Shown: positions 1 to 5,715, counted from the first letter of the stretch. The stretch: DNA of 5,723 nucleotides from Naegleria gruberi (GCA_000004985.1 GG739159.1); one strand, 5' to 3'. The notes: generated by a model not told the origin, from the sequence alone. A program made the numbers and translations.

Positions 1-1077
1 ATGCAGAGTACCAAAAAAAGTAAACATTATTATTCAATGTTTGCATTTGTTCAGGCATATTCAAAGGGTATATTGACATGGTTGGTTTCTTTGTTTACAA
101 AAGTATATTCCATTCCAATAGATAAATTTGATGATGAAAGTACATGGACTTCTTTACAGGAAGAGAAATTTCGAAAATTCATACAAGAGATGGAGAAAAA
201 TCCAACAATTGCTACATTATGTCATCTAATGAGATTAGGTTTAGATAATATTGAAATGAAAGAGTATATTCGAAATAATGATTCAAAATCATTGAGAGAA
301 TTATTGCCACAACGTTTGAAATTATATCTTGTACAGAAACGACGAAGATATTTCAATCTAATCAGTAATCAGATAAGACAAAATGTTTTCCTAGAATCCA
401 AATATCCAAATTTCCTGTCGTTTCTAGATAGAAACAAATCTATCTGTTTTTCCAATAATAATTATATGGCCAATGATGAATTTGTTGAGTTTGTACATAG
501 TGAAATCAAAGATGCACGGATTGCTAGAGATGAAAAGACTATTGGAAAGTCCATTCAAAAGAGAGTGTATGCAAATCAATTTGTTAGAGAATTGAAAAGT
601 TTCAAAACTTACAAAGAAACAGAATCATCTTGGGATTTGTCATCAAGTGTGAATGAAATTGTGAATTTACTTAATAAGCGTATAGGATTTGACAAGTCTT
701 CCATTTCTACATTTCATGCCAATCATAGGAAGAATATTGTTAATATTTTTACGTCCAACCATGCAGAGATTTTACCAAATGATGATCCTAAATTCAAATA
801 CGATAGCATCAGTGAAACAAAATTATTGGAATCTTTCACCAAAACAATTGAAAACACTCCCAATGACTCCACACAATCCAAGGATTTAAATTTAATTATT
901 TTAGATGATGATCCATTAAATACTAGTCAAGATTGTATCAGTAGTCCTTCAAAGAAGAGAAAAACACAAAGTGAACCATTGTTAATGGCCCCTCTCACAC
1001 AAGTAAACAAATCTAAACAGGGCCACAATGAATCAGCAACCTTCAATGTAGAGTTGCGAGGAACGATGCAACGTTAG
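1..1077 (+). CDS. Hypothetical N/K/S-rich protein of unknown function (358 codons). It flanks the retrotransposon, and the last 32 nt including the stop lie inside repeat A1. It may be 5'-partial at the window edge.
   Basis: Long open frame 1 over 1-1077, far longer than expected by chance in AT-rich DNA. It has a KKRK basic patch (SPSKKRKTQ) and an acidic-hydrophobic LIILDDD stretch. I recognise no conserved domain. It terminates at TAG 1075-1077, 30 nt inside the element's 5' repeat. Confidence 0.4.
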   Translation: MQSTKKSKHYYSMFAFVQAYSKGILTWLVSLFTKVYSIPIDKFDDESTWTSLQEEKFRKFIQEMEKNPTIATLCHLMRLGLDNIEMKEYIRNNDSKSLRELLPQRLKLYLVQKRRRYFNLISNQIRQNVFLESKYPNFLSFLDRNKSICFSNNNYMANDEFVEFVHSEIKDARIARDEKTIGKSIQKRVYANQFVRELKSFKTYKETESSWDLSSSVNEIVNLLNKRIGFDKSSISTFHANHRKNIVNIFTSNHAEILPNDDPKFKYDSISETKLLESFTKTIENTPNDSTQSKDLNLIILDDDPLNTSQDCISSPSKKRKTQSEPLLMAPLTQVNKSKQGHNESATFNVELRGTMQR

Positions 1078-1176
1078 TATTTCGACAAATTGTAAACAAT
1101 AAAATTGAGTTGATAAATAATTTTATGCTCAAAAAAATTAAGTATATTGAAATGGTTCAAACACCAAGCAAGGCGA
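1046..1176 (+). repeat. Split direct repeat A1 (131 bp), the 5' terminal repeat. It contains the gag 5' leader and the first codons of gag.
   Basis: Base-by-base comparison shows identity with 4984-5114 (131/131). The two copies diverge immediately after ...caagcaaggcga, continuing 'atatttcc' in one and 'cccaccca' in the other. Confidence 0.9.
1112..1119 (+). promoter_or_regulatory. TATA-like GATAAATA inside repeat A, about 30-40 nt upstream of the Kozak-context ATG at 1152. A second copy sits at 5050-5057 in A2.
   Basis: This is a sequence motif only and the genome is AT-rich, so the call is weak. Its position would place a transcription start just upstream of ATG 1152 (gaaATGg). Confidence 0.15.
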
Positions 1177-2177
1177 ATATTTCCAACATTCGTCAAAGAG
1201 TTTCAGCAAGCAAATCCTCAACTTCTACCTACAAGTCAGGTTACATCCCAGTAACTGACAATGGTAGCTCAGCTTCACTCCCCTCTGTGGTTGACCCAAC
1301 ATCCAAAACCTTGGATAACAACCAAGCTGGTTCTGAAAAGAACCTTGATGCTATTCTCAACGCCATCACTTCTTTGGGTGAGAGAATAAAGCATCTCGAA
1401 GCTGTTCCTCCTGTTCTGCAACAAGCTAATCAACTTGATGAAGACCCTGATGAGGAATCCGCTGATGAGGATTTCACTGGTAAACATTGGGGTCTAACTA
1501 CTATCAAGGAGATTAGACGTAACTACGAAGTTGGTGATAGACTATCCGATGGAGATGTCTTAAGTTTTGTCTCAGCCAAAACACTTCGTCATTACTCTTC
1601 CAATGAGGCGTTGTTGAATAGAGTTCAAGTTTTGATGGCTCGATTTGAATCTGTCATTCACAACTCTCGTAACTATCCTCGTCTGCAAGAAATTCAATCC
1701 AAAGGCTTGCAAAAGATGATGGAAATGTTACATTTGAAGTCTAAATTACTTCAGTTTGCTCTGAGCCATCCATTAAATGTAACCAACATCATTGAAATCA
1801 CTGAGTTGGTGTTTCTTCTCTCTGAGGTTGAGAAAATCTTTTTAGAAGAAGGTTTATTCGAAAGTAACTTTGATGTTGCGAACCAATTTATTCAACCCTT
1901 CATCCAAAGCAACACGTTTGCTGATATAACAGAAAAAGCTCGCCAAAAGAAGAGAGAGAAATCTGTAGTAAAGCATGCCATTACCAGCAAGATCCAAAAA
2001 CCTCTAAAGATGAAAGAAAAGTTTCAAAAACCGTCCTCTCATCAAGGTGGCATCCCTAACAGCTATTCAAAGCCATTCAACAATTACAACAAGAGTGGTT
2101 CCTCTTTTCAAAAGTCAGGAGATTCCAAGCCAAAGTACAATAACAATGGTGGAGGAGCTTTCAAACAAGACCTCTGA
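1125..2177 (+). CDS. gag-like ORF1 of the retrotransposon in frame 3 (350 aa). An alternative start at ATG 1152 has the better Kozak context.
   Basis: This is the first long ORF of the element, directly 5' of and overlapping the RT ORF, which is the position of gag in DIRS-type elements. It has a predicted helical or coiled stretch (LDAILNAITSLGERIKHLEA), an acidic tract and a basic K/N/S-rich C-terminal tail. There is no CCHC zinc knuckle. The ORF-track start at 1110 is a TTG, and the first ATGs are at 1125 and 1152. The stop is TGA 2175-2177. Confidence 0.55.
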   Translation: MLKKIKYIEMVQTPSKANISNIRQRVSASKSSTSTYKSGYIPVTDNGSSASLPSVVDPTSKTLDNNQAGSEKNLDAILNAITSLGERIKHLEAVPPVLQQANQLDEDPDEESADEDFTGKHWGLTTIKEIRRNYEVGDRLSDGDVLSFVSAKTLRHYSSNEALLNRVQVLMARFESVIHNSRNYPRLQEIQSKGLQKMMEMLHLKSKLLQFALSHPLNVTNIIEITELVFLLSEVEKIFLEEGLFESNFDVANQFIQPFIQSNTFADITEKARQKKREKSVVKHAITSKIQKPLKMKEKFQKPSSHQGGIPNSYSKPFNNYNKSGSSFQKSGDSKPKYNNNGGGAFKQDL

Positions 2178-4032
2178 CTTGGTAGGTTGCCGTCTCAACA
2201 AGTTTGTACCTCAGTGGGAGAGTTACAACTTCAACCCATTTATAGTGGATTGGATTCGAAATGGAGTCCCAATCTACTCAAATCCCACCCTTTGGAAAGA
2301 ATTCAAACAAAGGAAGAATTTCTCTCCAAAGGAAACCTCTTGGATGGATCAGGAAATCCAAGAGATGCTGAGTTCCAATGTAATAGAGATTGGAAACAGT
2401 TCAACAATATTGAACCCAATAAACATTGTACCCAAGAAGGGTTCGGATCAATTTCGCTTTATTCTAGACCTAAGGAAGGTCAATTTAGGAATAAAGGACA
2501 GTTCCTTCAAGATGGACAACATTCAAAGATGTTTGAAATTTGTTCAGAAGGGAATGTGGGCAACAAAGATAGACCTGAAGAAGGGTTACTTCCACGTTCC
2601 AATCAGGGAGAAACATCGCAATCTCCTTGGATTCAGGTACAAGGACAAGATTTATCAGTTCAAATGCCTACCGTTTGGGCTAAGTCAAGCTCCCAGAAAT
2701 TTCACAAAGATTATGAAAGAGTTAGTGACCAAGTGGAGAAAGCAGGGTATTCTAGTATTTATTTACATAGACGATATTTTGATTCTAAACAACAGCAAAG
2801 AAACTACCCAACTGCTCACAGACATAGTCATGAAGGATCTGGAGACATTGGGATGGATAATCCAGAAAGAGAAAAGCGTATTAGCACCGTGTCAACACAT
2901 AGAGTTTCTCGGTCTGGAACTGGATCTCGTACTTGGCCTTGTGAAAATCCCAGTCAACAAACAATCAACAGCCTTAGAAATGATTCAAAAATTCTTATCA
3001 GCAAACCAACGGAACAGGTTTGTAGCATGCAAGAAAGTAGCACAATTCCTCGGAAAGATGGAATTTCTAACTCTTTCAAACCATTACTTTGCTCCCTTTC
3101 TTGCTCGTCTTCGGAAGGATATGGTGAAAGTAGTAAACGACAAATCTTGGCACGCATCAATGAGAATATTCAGAGGTGCAGCGAAGGATCTAAATATTTT
3201 GAAAGATCTGATTCAGAAAAACAGTGGAATTCCCTTCGAACTGAATTCAACGAACCCAATTCGAGTGAATTCAGATGCCTGCCCAACAGGCTATGGAATT
3301 CACGCAGAGTCAACCATTACAATTGGAAGATTCACTTCCTCAGAACACATCAATGTGAAAGAGTTAAAAACACTCCTCATTTTCTTCACACAAGCAGATC
3401 GGTTAAACCTTTATGGTCCTGGACAAGCATTCGAAATCAGAGGCGACAATGTTACAGCAATTTCCTATATAAGGAGAGGTTACGGAGTCATAGAAGAACT
3501 CTCTCAAATCGCCAGAGACCTCTACAAGATCTTGATGAGAAGAAAATGGTGGATTTCAAAGGTGATTTACATTCCCTCAAAGGAGAACAATCTAGCAGAC
3601 AGACTGAGTCGCTTAACAGAATGGAAATCATCTCAAGAACTACTGCATCTAGTTCAGACAGAATTTGGAGAGCACCATGTGGACAGATTCGCGACATCGG
3701 AATCAACCACAACAATTCAATTCAACTCATGGATAGAGAACGACACATTCTTGAATCCATGGGAACAAAATCTGATGAGTTATTGTGTTCCTCCTCTGGG
3801 TCTGATATCTCAAGCTCTAGTTCATTGCATAAAATCAGAAGCGAAAGCGACATTTGTAGTTCCAGACTGGCCCTCTTCGATATGGTTTCCAGTCTTGCTA
3901 AAGATATCAGAAAGGATAATACCTGTTTCCCGAAAGATGCTTATAATAACGCCCTTGTCAGAGTTGCAAGACAAGTTCGAGACTTCCAATTTCCTGGTTG
4001 TTCAAGTGCATGGCAAGTTGTTCAAGCAATAA
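2146..4032 (+). CDS. Reverse transcriptase / RNase H polyprotein in frame 1. The frame is open from at least 2047, and the first ATG is at 2146 with an acaATGg context.
   Basis: RT blocks are present: NPINIVPKKGSDQFRFILDLRKVN, KIDLKKGYFHVP, FKCLPFGLSQAPRNF, FIYIDDILI (YIDD codons 2764-2775) and FLGLEL. RNase H has the catalytic Asp in RVNSDACPTGYGIH (Asp codon 3274-3276) and a C-terminal NNLADRLSRL motif. About 140 further residues follow before the stop TAA 4030-4032. Confidence 0.88.
   Translation: MVEELSNKTSDLVGCRLNKFVPQWESYNFNPFIVDWIRNGVPIYSNPTLWKEFKQRKNFSPKETSWMDQEIQEMLSSNVIEIGNSSTILNPINIVPKKGSDQFRFILDLRKVNLGIKDSSFKMDNIQRCLKFVQKGMWATKIDLKKGYFHVPIREKHRNLLGFRYKDKIYQFKCLPFGLSQAPRNFTKIMKELVTKWRKQGILVFIYIDDILILNNSKETTQLLTDIVMKDLETLGWIIQKEKSVLAPCQHIEFLGLELDLVLGLVKIPVNKQSTALEMIQKFLSANQRNRFVACKKVAQFLGKMEFLTLSNHYFAPFLARLRKDMVKVVNDKSWHASMRIFRGAAKDLNILKDLIQKNSGIPFELNSTNPIRVNSDACPTGYGIHAESTITIGRFTSSEHINVKELKTLLIFFTQADRLNLYGPGQAFEIRGDNVTAISYIRRGYGVIEELSQIARDLYKILMRRKWWISKVIYIPSKENNLADRLSRLTEWKSSQELLHLVQTEFGEHHVDRFATSESTTTIQFNSWIENDTFLNPWEQNLMSYCVPPLGLISQALVHCIKSEAKATFVVPDWPSSIWFPVLLKISERIIPVSRKMLIITPLSELQDKFETSNFLVVQVHGKLFKQ
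2178..3881 (+). other. Stop-free overprinted reading frame (frame 3). It runs from the gag TGA to the YR start, overlapping RT/RNase H in the -1 frame, and encodes an S/R/Q-rich low-complexity sequence.
   Basis: Frame 3 has no stop from 2178 to 4937 (916 codons). About 568 of these (2178-3881) overlap the frame-1 RT gene. In AT-rich DNA roughly 1 triplet in 13-20 is a stop, so this run cannot be chance. A dual-coding arrangement of this kind is known for the RT and recombinase ORFs of DIRS1. Confidence 0.5.
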
Positions 4033-4937
4033 GGGATCTTAGTATCCTTTCATCAATAGCTGAGAAAACATTCAGAACTTATAATAGAATTTATGGTGGT
4101 TTTCTCTGGTTTATCAATGTGTTTGATCTCACCATTGATGATCCTATAGCTATTGAATATTACATCTCATACCTCTTGATAAATATTCAAGGATACAAAG
4201 CAAAAACTGTGCAAGCAGCAATTCAATTCTTTGCTAACCTTGATGGCAAACCCATTACCATCTCTGCCTCCTACTCTAAGGTTAAAAAAGGTGTACTGAA
4301 ACTTTATACACTCTCGGATAAAGTTTCTCTTCAAAGAGATCCAATTACAGTCAAACATTTGACTGATTATGTGAAGTGCAAAGACAAAGTGGACAATTTC
4401 ACTTTTCGACTCACTTCTGCTATTCTAGTGGTTGGTTTCAGACTATTTGCAAGACCTGGTGAGGTTGCGCGCTTAAAATGGTCCTATATCAAGGTTCTCA
4501 AGAATGGAAAAATCAAAATTGACCTCAGTGGTCACAAAACTGATTTCTTCCTTATTGAAAAACCAATTACTATTGACAAGAATACAAAGAATCCAAGTCT
4601 TTGCCCAATAACCCTACTAAATTCGTATATGGATTTGGTTCGTGAATTTAAAGATGACGATTCTCCTTTGTTTTCCTACGAAAACAACAAATTCCTTGAT
4701 TCAAATGATATTTCTAAGATACTCAAGAATGCGGTGGGTATGGTTGACCAAGATGTGAGAGTTTCTGGGCACAGCATTAGAATTGGAGCCATCACAGAAG
4801 GACTTAGAAAAGGTGTTTCTACTTCAGATCTCATGGTTGGTGCAAGACATAAGAAAACCAACAGTTTATTTCCTTATCTACGATCTGAGGGTCTTGCTGG
4901 CAAGAATTTCACAGACACCTTATTTTCTCTGGACTAA
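3882..4937 (+). CDS. Tyrosine recombinase (lambda-integrase family) in frame 3. ATG 3882 is the nearest in-frame ATG upstream of the domain and would give a 351-aa protein. The frame itself is open back to 2178.
   Basis: The catalytic signature is present: Arg in FARPGEVARLKW (about 4452-4454), H-x-x-R in GHSIRIGAIT (His 4770-4772, Arg 4779-4781), His in GARHKK, and the nucleophile Tyr in NSLFPYL (codon 4875-4877). The stop is TAA 4935-4937, directly abutting repeat B1. Confidence 0.78.
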   Translation: MVSSLAKDIRKDNTCFPKDAYNNALVRVARQVRDFQFPGCSSAWQVVQAIRDLSILSSIAEKTFRTYNRIYGGFLWFINVFDLTIDDPIAIEYYISYLLINIQGYKAKTVQAAIQFFANLDGKPITISASYSKVKKGVLKLYTLSDKVSLQRDPITVKHLTDYVKCKDKVDNFTFRLTSAILVVGFRLFARPGEVARLKWSYIKVLKNGKIKIDLSGHKTDFFLIEKPITIDKNTKNPSLCPITLLNSYMDLVREFKDDDSPLFSYENNKFLDSNDISKILKNAVGMVDQDVRVSGHSIRIGAITEGLRKGVSTSDLMVGARHKKTNSLFPYLRSEGLAGKNFTDTLFSLD

Positions 4938-4985
4938 CCCATTGGTTTATCAACGATTGTTTTATTGTTTCTTTTGGAGAAATAT
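4937..4985 (+). repeat. Split direct repeat B1 (49 bp), the internal copy of the 3' terminal repeat. It lies immediately 5' of A2 and shares 'at' with it.
   Basis: Identical (49/49) to 5603-5651: acccattggtttatcaacgattgttttattgtttcttttggagaaatat. Confidence 0.85.
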
Positions 4986-5114
4986 GTAGAGTTGCGAGGA
5001 ACGATGCAACGTTAGTATTTCGACAAATTGTAAACAATAAAATTGAGTTGATAAATAATTTTATGCTCAAAAAAATTAAGTATATTGAAATGGTTCAAAC
5101 ACCAAGCAAGGCGA
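4984..5114 (+). repeat. Split direct repeat A2 (131 bp), the internal copy of the 5' terminal repeat. It includes a duplicated gag start codon at 5090.
   Basis: Matches 1046-1176 at 131/131 with an offset of 3938 nt. The duplicated ATG at 5090 reads MVQTPSKATHPPVPLFETSGIP and then reaches a stop after 22 codons. Confidence 0.9.
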
Positions 5115-5602
5115 CCCACCCACCCGTTCCCTTATTTGAAACTTCAGGAATTCCTTGAATTCCTTCAATTAGTATTTCACTCCTTGAGTGTTTTTCCTCT
5201 TTGTCTTTTAGATCGATCTTGGTAAGTGATCCTTCTATGGATGCAGGATTAGTATCACCTTGTGATACAATAATTTTTATTTCTAACTAACATCATTTGA
5301 ATAATTCGAAATATGCTCGTAAAGTAAGCCAGATTTATTTTTTCAAAAAATATTTCTGATGGAAATTACCAGGCATTTTTTTACAAGCAATTCACCTTTT
5401 AAAACTTTAATGGATTGGAGTTTTTACCGATTTTTTCCTGCAATGCAGGTTTTTTATAGGGGAGTTGTTCTACTTCAATCTCGATTTTGTAAACAACTTT
5501 ATTAACTCGGGACAATGCTGAATAAAGTCAATGACCTAAAAGGCAGCATTTCTGAGCAACATACCTCATCCTTTGGATGAAGAATATGTTGAGTGAGCTT
5601 CT
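5115..5602 (+). other. Unique 488-bp non-coding spacer between A2 and B2 (3' untranslated or structural region of the element).
   Basis: There is no ORF of 60 aa or more on either strand. The region contains CCCACCCACCC (5115-5125), a tandem 9-mer GAATTCCTT x2 (5148-5165), short hairpins (5252-5268, 5437-5449), T-runs and an AATAAA at 5521-5526. Confidence 0.5.
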
Positions 5603-5651
5603 ACCCATTGGTTTATCAACGATTGTTTTATTGTTTCTTTTGGAGAAATAT
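5603..5651 (+). repeat. Split direct repeat B2 (49 bp), the 3' terminal repeat of the element.
   Basis: Identical to 4937-4985. Similarity to the first copy ends at 5651/5652, with 'atata' here against 'atatg' at the B1/A2 junction. Confidence 0.85.
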
Positions 5652-5715
5652 AACAAATACAAAAGTACGTCTTTGCATTTGTTGTACACTGAGTAATCGT
5701 TAGTTCTGAGAGCAC

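What the first reader, a model, noticed from the sequence alone, without database searches (positions are those of the whole stretch)
2175..4937. gag and the recombinase share one frame across a single TGA, with about 568 codons overprinted on RT/RNase H
gag (frame 3) ends at TGA 2175-2177 and the same frame then stays open for 916 codons to the YR stop at 4937. The RT/RNase H protein is encoded over 2146-4032 in frame 1, so about 1.7 kb of DNA is stop-free in two frames. In AT-rich sequence this needs strong selection. The layout mirrors the overlapping RT and recombinase ORFs of Dictyostelium DIRS1. Two consequences follow. (1) The TGA is followed by C (UGA-C, then CUU), which is among the leakiest eukaryotic stop contexts, so a Gag-X-YR readthrough fusion of about 1270 aa is possible. 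(2) The overprinted S/R/Q-rich segment may be a functional disordered linker, or may simply be kept open so that ribosomes can reach the YR domain.
Basis: partly seen in the sequence, partly recalled or inferred. Interest (0 to 1): 0.75.

Follow-up and report, generated by a model that had tools for sequence, protein, structure and literature searches.

The report
Recombinase frame kept open through polymerase gene
A young Naegleria gruberi jumping gene keeps about 550 meaningless codons free of stops inside its polymerase gene, probably so that ribosomes leaking past the coat-protein (gag) stop codon can reach the recombinase; the overlap is already known in this transposon group, but this route is a new, testable idea.

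Summary
Frame 3 has one stop (TGA 2175) between the gag start and the recombinase (YR) stop at 4935. It overlaps the RT/RNase H/methyltransferase-like ORF (frame 1, open 2014-4029) for 617 codons. Synonymous reshuffling of pol predicts about 37 stops in that frame; there are none.

The window is a whole Naegleria gruberi scaffold. It carries an intact PAT-like (DIRS-order) tyrosine-recombinase retrotransposon at 1046-5651, with split direct repeats that are 100% identical.

Long pol/YR overlaps are already described for DIRS elements, so the overlap is not new. Three results are new here.
- The layout recurs in every relative found: gag, then TGA (followed by C in all intact copies), then an open frame to YR, with pol in the +1 frame. 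This holds down to 30% pol identity. Two distant relatives have no stop at all, giving one gag-X-YR ORF.
- About 550 overprinted codons ("X", 2178 to about 3834) show no amino-acid constraint of their own. Only stops are avoided. Real dual coding is limited to about 3835-4029.
- Neither pol nor X has a conserved AUG.

Best reading: ribosomes enter X from gag by UGA-C readthrough, giving a roughly 1270-aa Gag-X-YR, and pol is probably reached by a +1 shift at the same site. This is inferred, not shown.

The parts
1..1045 (+). Flanking sequence, not part of the element. It is an orphan ORF annotated as 'predicted protein [Naegleria gruberi]', interrupted by the insertion, and it resumes at 5652.
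   Evidence: P0122 is 99% identical, lies on a 5723-nt contig, and has no other homologue; joining 1-1047 to 5652 onward restores ...ESATFNNKYKSTSLHLLYTE*.
1046..1176 (+). A1, the 5' terminal half of the split direct repeat. It contains the gag start codon (ATG 1125).
   Evidence: 131 nt, 100% identical to A2. The string ATGCTCAAAAAAATT is also present in the A repeat of L003.
1125..2177 (+). Putative gag ORF (350 aa), assigned by position only. It has a low-complexity N/K/S/G-rich tail and ends at TGA 2175-2177.
   Evidence: It has no significant Pfam hit. It occupies the same position and frame relationship in all relatives.
2175..2178 (+). The gag stop with its +4 base (UGA-C). This is the proposed recoding site. 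In the pol frame it reads tcT GAC (Ser-Asp).
   Evidence: TGA in 10 of 10 lineages, and C at +4 in all 8 intact or nearly intact lineages. GAC makes up only 35% of Asp codons at sites where T is allowed.
2146..4032 (+). pol ORF in frame 1, which is +1 relative to gag. It holds RT (about 2428-2922), an RNase H-like region, and a Dam-like methyltransferase domain (about 3619-3927). Conserved pol sequence starts at the GAC that overlaps the gag stop. The ATG at 2146 is not conserved.
   Evidence: RVT_1 at E 2.5e-24; Dam at 26.2 bits. (267 homologues). (the ATG is GTG in L001). (alignment, YIDD motif invariant).
2178..3834 (+). X: about 552 overprinted codons in frame 3 (the -1 frame of pol). They are kept free of stops but show no amino-acid constraint of their own. 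X is hydrophilic and rich in S, R and Q.
   Evidence: stop avoidance. (X identity equals the null). (synonymous-site identity 0.755, the same as in the YR-only region). (composition). (only 14 weak hits among 1.84 billion representative proteins).
3835..4029 (+). True dual-coding zone. The conserved N-terminal part of the recombinase overlaps the C-terminal tail of pol.
   Evidence: X-frame identity 0.40 against a null of 0.27, z = 6.9; the 3715-3834 window gives z = 3.8; conserved KKDAYN..R..QQVR motifs upstream of the pol stop; third-position divergence falls to 0.146 in 3658-4027.
4033..4937 (+). Non-overlapping part of the tyrosine recombinase, in frame 3. The catalytic domain lies at about 4449-4883. 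The stop is TAA 4935-4937.
   Evidence: Phage_integrase: 25 bits here, 38.9 bits in L002. (ARPGE, GHK, GHSxRIG, H/W and Y motifs all present). (Cre box II to Tyr324 match, E 2e-3).
4937..4985 (+). B1, an internal copy of the 3' terminal repeat half.
   Evidence: 49 nt, 100% identical to B2. It abuts A2 with a shared 'AT'.
4984..5114 (+). A2, an internal copy of the 5' terminal repeat half.
5115..5602 (.). ORF-free spacer between A2 and B2.
   Evidence: stops in all six frames.
5603..5651 (+). [quoted passage not shown]
   Evidence: It ends ...GAGAAATAT, followed by the flank AACAAA.

Best explanation
The window carries a recently inserted, intact PAT-like (DIRS-order) tyrosine-recombinase retrotransposon of Naegleria gruberi. 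The layout is A1, gag, pol (RT/RH/MT), YR, B1, A2, spacer, B2.

The recombinase ORF extends 5' through the whole of pol, in pol's -1 frame, back to the gag stop codon. That frame is the one where stops can be avoided purely by synonymous codon choice in pol.

About 550 codons of this extension ('X') serve only as a translatable conduit. Selection removes stops but does not constrain the amino-acid sequence. Only the last 40-65 codons before the pol stop code for real recombinase sequence.

Proposed mechanism. All proteins come from one full-length mRNA, and ribosomes arrive at the end of gag. Most terminate at UGA-C and release Gag. A fraction read the leaky UGA-C as sense and continue through X to make a Gag-X-YR fusion of about 1270 aa, which would also tether the recombinase to Gag assemblies. 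Another fraction probably shifts +1 at or near the same stop, so that ...NNN U GAC... is read as GAC, giving Gag-Pol.

Shown: the frame structure, its conservation, the stop avoidance, the lack of X sequence constraint, the conserved UGA-C, and the absence of conserved AUGs.

Inferred: that X is translated, that entry is by readthrough, that pol is reached by a +1 frameshift, and that the fusion has a packaging role.

The confidence of 0.55 is for the composite claim that X is a translated conduit entered from gag by readthrough. That selection keeps X open is close to certain.
For: (1) Stop avoidance is extreme and old. X has 0 stops against 29-41 expected in W (this window), L001, L002, L004, L005 and L006, and 0 against 38.9 expected in L073, whose pol is only 30% identical.

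(2) gag and X-YR share a frame, with pol at +1, in all 8 elements and again in L008, L071 and L073. The gag stop is always TGA and sits at the same pol codon (nnT GAC, Asp), although the preceding pol residue varies among S, N and A.

(3) The +4 base is C in all intact copies. GAC makes up only 35% of Asp codons where T is permitted, so six or more independent lineages give P of about 0.002 or less. UGA-C is the leakiest tetranucleotide in yeast (PMC4748822).

(4) No stop ever lies between the gag TGA and the first X-frame ATG. That gap is 118 codons in W, where about 7 stops are expected, and 16-43 codons in the others. The ATG position is not conserved, and in W it is only the sixth ATG downstream of the stop.

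(5) L016, and L072 once one indel is allowed for, have gag-X-YR as a single ORF of about 1375-1400 codons with no stop, and pol at +1. Translation from gag through X to YR is the default there.

(6) X has no constraint of its own. In deep pairs, X identity of 25-36% matches the 24-29% that pol imposes. A sliding window shows an excess only from about 3715-3835 onward. W versus L001 synonymous-site identity is 0.755 in the overlap and 0.755 in the YR-only region. Substitutions fall on X codon position 1.

(7) The pol ATG at 2146 is absent even in L001. The openness of the pol frame upstream of the gag stop is a by-product of composition.

(8) No conserved -1 slippery heptamer exists in the overlap.
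Against: - There are no expression data of any kind.
- No consistent RNA structure lies just 3' of the UGA (z from -3.0 to +1.1), and no Rfam element matches.
- In L002, L004, L005 and L006 the pol stop overlaps an ATG in the YR frame (ATGA), which offers a different route to YR in those lineages.
- In other long-overlap DIRS-like families (L011, L017, L029) gag is not in the X frame. Readthrough therefore cannot be the general explanation for long overlaps.
- The conserved C could serve a +1 frameshift rather than readthrough. The conserved Asp codon makes the two hard to separate.
- A 550-residue unconstrained insert in a fusion protein is an unusual thing for selection to tolerate.
Confidence: 0.55

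Rival explanations
1. X-YR is translated on its own, not as a Gag fusion. Ribosomes would initiate at an AUG or near-cognate codon shortly after the gag stop, by reinitiation or leaky scanning. This would give a recombinase of about 800-900 aa with a long junk N-terminus.
For: Most relatives have an X-frame ATG 48-129 nt after the gag stop. In families where gag is not in the X frame (L011, L017, L029), the X ORF still begins near the gag end with its own ATG. Some route into X that does not use readthrough must therefore exist in the order.
Against: In W and L001 the first X-frame ATG is 354 nt downstream and is preceded by five ATGs in other frames. The 118 codons before it are still stop-free, with about 7 stops expected. 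The ATG positions are not conserved and are mostly by-products of pol Trp codons (nnA TGG). Reinitiation after a 350-codon ORF is normally inefficient in eukaryotes (general knowledge). This rival does not explain why the stop is always TGA-C, or why L016 and L072 lack a stop.
Confidence: 0.2
2. YR is reached from pol, either by a -1 frameshift late in pol or by termination-reinitiation at the pol stop (ATGA). Under this rival, the long upstream open frame is not itself translated.
For: The YR frame is -1 relative to pol. An ATGA stop-start overlap sits exactly at the pol stop in L002, L004, L005 and L006.
Against: It gives no reason for about 550 upstream codons to be kept open in every lineage, including those with ATGA. 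W, L001 and L003 have no ATG at the pol stop. No conserved slippery heptamer exists anywhere in the overlap.
Confidence: 0.1
3. X encodes a functional protein domain, or a sequence-specific linker, and is under its own purifying selection.
For: X is consistently hydrophilic and, in most lineages, basic at +0.10 to +0.18 net charge per residue. That could suit non-specific nucleic-acid binding.
Against: X identity between lineages equals the expectation imposed by pol across 2176-3475. Synonymous-site identity in the overlap equals that of non-overlapping YR. There is no Pfam domain. There are no homologues other than the same frame of related elements. Net charge is not conserved, being +0.03 in W.
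Confidence: 0.05
4. The open frame is a chance or compositional artefact.
For: The -1 frame is the easiest one to keep open. The short pol-frame openness upstream of the gag stop is indeed compositional.
Against: P is about 1e-30 in W alone. The result is replicated in 7 or more lineages whose synonymous sites are saturated. Distant DIRS-like elements are bimodal: either 0-1 stops or about the expected 18-44.
Confidence: 0.01

Closest known systems
Long pol/YR ORF overlap of DIRS1-like retrotransposons (Dictyostelium DIRS-1; Piednoel et al. 2011, PMC3266345; Ribeiro et al. 2019, PMC6681497)
   Same: The YR ORF overlaps most or all of the RT/RH/MT ORF, and the catalytic YR domain lies in the non-overlapping 3' end. 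The long overlap is present in about half of the elements: 14 of 28 in PMC3266345, and 7 of 13 distant loci here.
   Different: This element has split direct repeats rather than inverted terminal repeats plus an internal complementary region. The papers I could read describe the overlap but give no translation mechanism. They do not report co-framing of gag and YR across one conserved UGA-C, nor the lack of sequence constraint in the overlapped part.
PAT-like elements (Pat1, Toc3, kangaroo) of the DIRS order
   Same: gag, then RT/RH with a Dam-like MT domain, then YR. The repeats are arranged as A1 ... B1 A2 ... B2 (PMC4157794, PMC6681497).
   Different: The host is a heterolobosean amoeba. 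[quoted passage not shown] No zinc knuckle was seen in gag. Phylogenetic placement was not tested.
Retroviral gag-pol stop-codon readthrough (murine leukaemia virus type) and UGA-C / UGA-CUA readthrough contexts
   Same: A single leaky stop at the end of gag, followed in frame by the enzymatic ORF. This produces a minority Gag-fusion that would set stoichiometry and co-assembly. L002 even has UGA-CUA.
   Different: Here the in-frame downstream ORF is the recombinase rather than pol. It is separated from gag by about 550 codons overprinted on pol. No downstream pseudoknot or stem-loop was found next to the stop. Nothing has been shown experimentally.
+1 frameshifting at a stop codon (antizyme UCC-UGA-U, bacterial RF2 CUU-UGA-C, Euplotes AAA-UAR) and Ty1/Ty3 gag-pol +1 frameshifting
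   Same: pol is in the +1 frame and has no conserved AUG. Conserved pol sequence starts at the GAC that overlaps the UGA. Five lineages have AAA-UGA.
   Different: The P-site codon is not conserved (CUC, CAA, GAA, AAA, GGC). No known shift heptamer is present. This comparison rests on recalled knowledge plus frame geometry only.

Membership tests
DIRS order (tyrosine-recombinase retrotransposons) | Ty3/gypsy-type reverse transcriptase/RNase H ORF | tested here: met
   RVT_1 at E 2.5e-24. There are 267 homologues, many of which carry RVT_1 with RNase H and Dam domains. RNase H itself is seen only by alignment and position in the window.
DIRS order (tyrosine-recombinase retrotransposons) | A tyrosine recombinase in place of a DDE integrase, and no protease | tested here: met
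   Phage_integrase scores 25 bits in the window and 38.9 bits in L002. The R..K..HxxR..H/W..Y motifs are present. The match to Cre box II through the catalytic Tyr has E 2e-3. No integrase or protease Pfam hit appears in any ORF.
PAT-like superfamily | Split direct repeats arranged A1 ... B1 A2 ... B2 | tested here: met
   A1 1046-1176 equals A2 4984-5114, and B1 4937-4985 equals B2 5603-5651, both at 100% identity.
PAT-like superfamily | Methyltransferase-like domain downstream of RT/RH | tested here: inconclusive
   PF05869 Dam scores 26.2 bits, below the 28.1 cut-off. The same family is precomputed for many homologues.
PAT-like superfamily | Phylogenetic placement of RT/YR with Pat1, Toc or kangaroo | not tested
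DIRS1-like superfamily (sensu stricto) | Inverted terminal repeats plus an internal complementary region | tested here: not met
   The inverted-repeat search found only short pairs of 26 nt or less, at 77-93% complementarity, and none at the termini.
Long pol/YR ORF overlap (feature of DIRS elements) | The YR ORF is open across most of pol, with the catalytic domain in the non-overlapping 3' end | tested here: met
Programmed stop-codon readthrough | A leaky stop context conserved across relatives | tested here: met
   TGA in 10 of 10 lineages. C at +4 in all intact copies, against a 35% background. Leakiness ranking from PMC4748822.
Programmed stop-codon readthrough | The downstream in-frame region shows a protein-coding evolutionary signature | tested here: inconclusive
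   The frame is kept open. It shows no amino-acid constraint until about 3715-3835, and its substitution pattern follows pol.
Programmed stop-codon readthrough | A 3' stimulatory RNA structure close to the stop | tested here: not met
   Folding the 120 nt after the UGA in 6 lineages gave z from -3.0 to +1.1 with no shared structure near the stop. A hairpin at +70 to +102 has only weak covariation.
Programmed stop-codon readthrough | A readthrough protein product is observed | not testable with these tools
   This needs proteomics, ribosome profiling or reporter assays.
+1 programmed frameshift for pol | pol lies in the +1 frame, has no start codon of its own, and has a recognisable shift site | tested here: inconclusive
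   The +1 geometry holds in all members and the pol ATG is not conserved. However, the P-site codon varies and no known heptamer is present.

The most novel reading that the evidence does not exclude
One stop codon (UGA-C at the end of gag) acts as a three-way translational switch. Termination gives Gag, a +1 shift gives Gag-Pol, and readthrough gives Gag-X-YR. The 550-codon X segment would be a pure 'translational conduit', kept only to be stop-free and with no protein function of its own. This would explain why long pol/YR overlaps exist in tyrosine-recombinase retrotransposons.
Probability: 0.3. Interest if true: 0.75.

Novelty: new variant of a known kind. Interest (0 to 1): 0.55.

Why it matters
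The long pol/recombinase overlap of DIRS elements has been described since DIRS-1 was sequenced in 1985. None of the papers I could read explains it, or says how the 3' recombinase ORF is translated from the single full-length mRNA.

This family offers a concrete, testable answer. The overlap would be the price of delivering ribosomes from the end of gag to the recombinase, through a leaky stop in some lineages and through no stop at all in others.

If confirmed, it would be an unusually clear case of overprinting in which selection acts only on the absence of stops. It could also be a case of two recoding events sharing one stop codon.

Tried and rejected
- **AlphaFold2 on X-YR.** Only a two-sequence alignment was allowed. 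Mean pLDDT was 27 with every residue below 50, including the recombinase control region, so it says nothing about disorder in X.
- **RNA structure after the UGA.** No shared or significant fold was found. The Rfam E-value scan gave only two sub-threshold chance hits.
- **Hairpin at 2245-2277.** It has one compensatory change between W and L001, but the covariation test was weak (14-17 of 500 shuffles reach the observed value). I left it as a side note.
- **Search for a conserved -1 slippery heptamer in the overlap.** None was found.
- **pol-frame openness upstream of the gag stop as evidence for an upstream shift or start site.** Rejected. Resampling gag codons gives P(no stop) of 0.1-1.0, because the gag tail lacks hydrophobic codons.
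- **Viral-contig scan for more relatives.** It returned two irrelevant weak hits.
- **L070, a 98% identical copy with an X-frame stop, as a possible refutation.** Rejected. It also has 5-nt and 37-nt insertions in gag and an 18-nt deletion in pol, so it is a dead copy.
- **Key reviews not held.** Goodwin & Poulter 2001 and Poulter & Butler 2015 are not in the library. I cannot exclude that co-framing or readthrough was discussed there.
- **UGA as a sense codon in the host.** Rejected. TGA ends pol in L002, L004, L005 and L006, and N. gruberi is not known to use a variant code (general knowledge).

Full report
**1. Observation**

The frame map shows that, within 1029-5013, frame 3 has stops only at 1029, 2175 and 4935. 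Frame 1 is open from 2014 to 4029. gag (ATG 1125 to TGA 2175-2177) and a 919-codon frame ending at the recombinase stop therefore share one frame across a single TGA, and the next base is C. The stretch open in both frames is 2178-4029, or 617 codons. Pfam finds RVT_1 (E 2.5e-24) and a Dam-like domain (26.2 bits, just under the cut-off) in frame 1. It finds a weak Phage_integrase match at the 3' end of frame 3.

The open frame is not chance. In 5000 synonymous shuffles of the pol ORF, frame 3 gained 38.2 stops on average (minimum 21), against none observed. At the 179 sites where a T-ending pol codon would make a frame-3 stop, none ends in T. Elsewhere 32% of pol codons end in T. The third frame carries 66 stops over the same stretch.

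**2. What the window is**

Repeats give the layout A1 (1046-1176), ORFs, B1 (4937-4985), A2 (4984-5114), a 488-nt ORF-free spacer, then B2 (5603-5651). Both repeat pairs are 100% identical, and an 'AT' is shared at both ends and at the B1/A2 junction. This is the split-direct-repeat layout of PAT-like and Ngaro elements (PMC4157794, PMC6681497). Together with the MT-like domain it points to a PAT-like member of the DIRS order, not DIRS1-like in the strict sense. No terminal inverted repeats were found.

The recombinase has the ARPGE, GHK, GHSxRIG, H/W and Y motifs. It matches Cre from box II to the catalytic tyrosine.

Positions 1-1045 are flanking sequence. They form an orphan ORF annotated as a Naegleria gruberi predicted protein, on a contig of exactly 5723 nt. 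Removing the element restores 14 further codons and a stop. The window is therefore a whole N. gruberi scaffold with a young insertion.

**3. Relatives**

The full frame-3 protein has one hit among 5.8 billion proteins (P0001, 78% identity). Gene callers usually suppress overlapping ORFs, which may explain why. The pol protein has 267 hits.

I fetched the following relatives:

| Locus | Relation to the window (W) |
|---|---|
| L001 | 86.5% nucleotide identity |
| L002-L006, L008, L071 | pol about 52-58% identical to W in those measured |
| L007 | degraded copy in N. fowleri |
| L070 | 98% identical, but a dead copy |
| L073 | pol 30% identical |
| L016 | pol 27% identical |
| L072 | distant relative, similar to L016 |

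In every member of the family, gag and X-YR share a frame and pol is at +1. The gag stop is TGA, and it sits on the same pol codon pair (nnT GAC) even though the preceding pol residue varies among S, N and A.

The contexts of the gag stop are:

| Context | Lineages |
|---|---|
| CUC-UGA-C | W, L001 |
| CAA-UGA-CUA | L002 |
| GAA-UGA-C | L003 |
| AAA-UGA-C | L004, L005, L006, L073 |
| GGC-UGA-C | L008 |
| AAA-UGA-U | L071 (defective) |
| AAA-UGA-A | L007 (defective) |

GAC makes up only 35% of Asp codons at sites where T is permitted, so the C is conserved beyond codon usage. UGA-C is the leakiest tetranucleotide in yeast (PMC4748822).

After the TGA the frame runs uninterrupted to the YR stop in W, L001, L002, L004 and L073, and to the contig end in L006 and L008. 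X-frame stops number 0 against 29-41 expected in six members, and 2 in L003. L073 has 0 against 38.9 expected. Synonymous sites are saturated between these lineages, so the selection is old and continuing.

L016 has a single 1375-codon ORF running from the gag ATG through X to YR, with no stop and with pol at +1. L072 has the same layout once one indel is allowed for.

**4. Is X a protein with its own function?**

The evidence says no.

- Between W and L001, substitutions in the overlap fall at pol codon positions 1/2/3 at rates of 6.0%, 3.7% and 24.1%. They therefore hit X codon position 1.
- Synonymous-site identity is 0.755 in the overlap and 0.755 in the non-overlapping YR region.
- Between deep lineages, X identity is 25-36%. 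A null that keeps pol's protein sequence, its codon usage and the no-stop property gives 24-29%.
- In 40-codon windows, X identity equals the null from 2176 to about 3475. It exceeds the null only at 3715-3834 (z = 3.8) and 3835-4029 (z = 6.9). Conserved YR-frame motifs appear there.
- X is hydrophilic (Kyte-Doolittle about -1.0 to -1.1) and rich in S, R and Q. It has no Pfam domain.
- A search of 1.84 billion representative proteins matches X only to the same frame of related elements.

So about 550 codons are kept open and nothing more. True dual coding covers only about 40-100 codons.

**5. How ribosomes get there**

The pol ATG at 2146 is GTG in L001, and no pol-frame ATG is conserved. The openness of the pol frame upstream of the gag stop follows from the composition of the gag tail. 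Conserved pol sequence begins at the GAC that overlaps the UGA.

X-frame ATGs lie 48-354 nt downstream of the gag stop at non-conserved positions. In W the first one is only the sixth ATG after the stop. Yet no stop ever precedes it, across 118 codons in W where about 7 stops are expected. No conserved -1 slippery site exists in the overlap.

The simplest account is that translation enters X from gag by readthrough of UGA-C, giving a Gag-X-YR of about 1270 aa. In L016 and L072 translation would simply continue, because there is no stop. pol would be reached by a +1 shift at or near the same stop.

This is inference. No stimulatory structure adjoins the stop, and there are no expression data.

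**6. Counter-evidence and limits**

- L003 has open gag, pol and YR frames but two TAA codons in X. Its A repeats differ by 2.85%, so neutral decay is plausible but not proven.
- Four lineages have ATGA at the pol stop / YR start, which is a possible alternative route to YR.
- Among 13 distant DIRS-like loci the overlap is bimodal. Seven have 0-1 stops in the pol -1 frame and six have about the expected 18-44. This matches the 'half of 28 elements' reported in PMC3266345.
- In L011, L017 and L029 gag is not in the X frame. Readthrough cannot be the general solution there. Those elements share only the principle that the YR ORF reaches back to the gag-pol junction.

**7. Novelty**

The overlap itself is already known (PMC3266345, PMC6681497, PMC3783388, PMC3950715). 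In the papers I could search I found no report of any of the following:
- gag and YR sharing a frame across a conserved UGA-C;
- relatives with no gag stop;
- evidence that X is free of sequence constraint;
- any translation mechanism for the YR ORF.

I therefore rate this a new variant of a known kind, of moderate interest.

Noticed in passing
window 1-1077 and 5652-5696: The window is an entire 5723-nt Naegleria gruberi scaffold. ORF 1-1077 is annotated as a 'predicted protein', has no homologue elsewhere, and is really a flanking ORF cut by the element. Its annotated C-terminus (VELRGTMQR*) is read from the A1 repeat. Removing 1048-5651 restores ...ATFNNKYKSTSLHLLYTE*.
   Followed up: partly
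window 1046-1047, 4984-4985, 5650-5651: An 'AT' dinucleotide is shared by the left end, the internal B1/A2 junction and the right end. This would fit recombination between a circle junction and an AT in the target. There is no target-site duplication beyond this.
   Followed up: no
window 2245-2253 paired with 2269-2277: A hairpin formed by the DWI and PI codons of pol (GAUUGG...CCAAUC), 70-102 nt after the gag stop, is present in most relatives. Between W and L001 there is a compensatory double change (GAU/AUC to GAC/GUC). The covariation test was weak (14-17 of 500 shuffles), so this is inconclusive.
   Followed up: partly
L002 3061-3064; pol stops at L004 2814, L005 2961 and L006 2914: In four relatives the pol stop overlaps an ATG in the recombinase frame (ATGA), exactly where the conserved YR domain starts. 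This could be a termination-reinitiation site. It is absent in the window (gcaaTAAggg).
   Followed up: partly
L016 85-4209; L072 144-4359: Two distant DIRS-like elements from metagenomes encode gag, X and YR as one continuous ORF of about 1375-1400 codons with no gag stop, and with pol in the +1 frame. L072 needs one indel to be allowed for.
   Followed up: partly
L070 (ENA ERZ929261), aligned to window 1081-4876: A 98% identical copy occurs in an environmental metagenome, but it is dead. It has 5-nt and 37-nt insertions in gag, an 18-nt deletion in pol, and a cluster of 5 substitutions at window 3103-3120 that includes an X-frame stop.
   Followed up: yes
window 5115-5602: A 488-nt spacer between A2 and B2 has no ORF on either strand and drops to about 31% GC. 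Its role is unknown; it could be a 3' UTR or hold replication signals.
   Followed up: no
L011, L017, L029 (metagenome loci): Other DIRS-like families with a long overlap have gag in the pol+1 frame, the classical -1 gag-pol geometry. Their X ORF starts near, or 200-280 nt before, the gag stop in a third frame. Entry into X must use a different mechanism there.
   Followed up: partly
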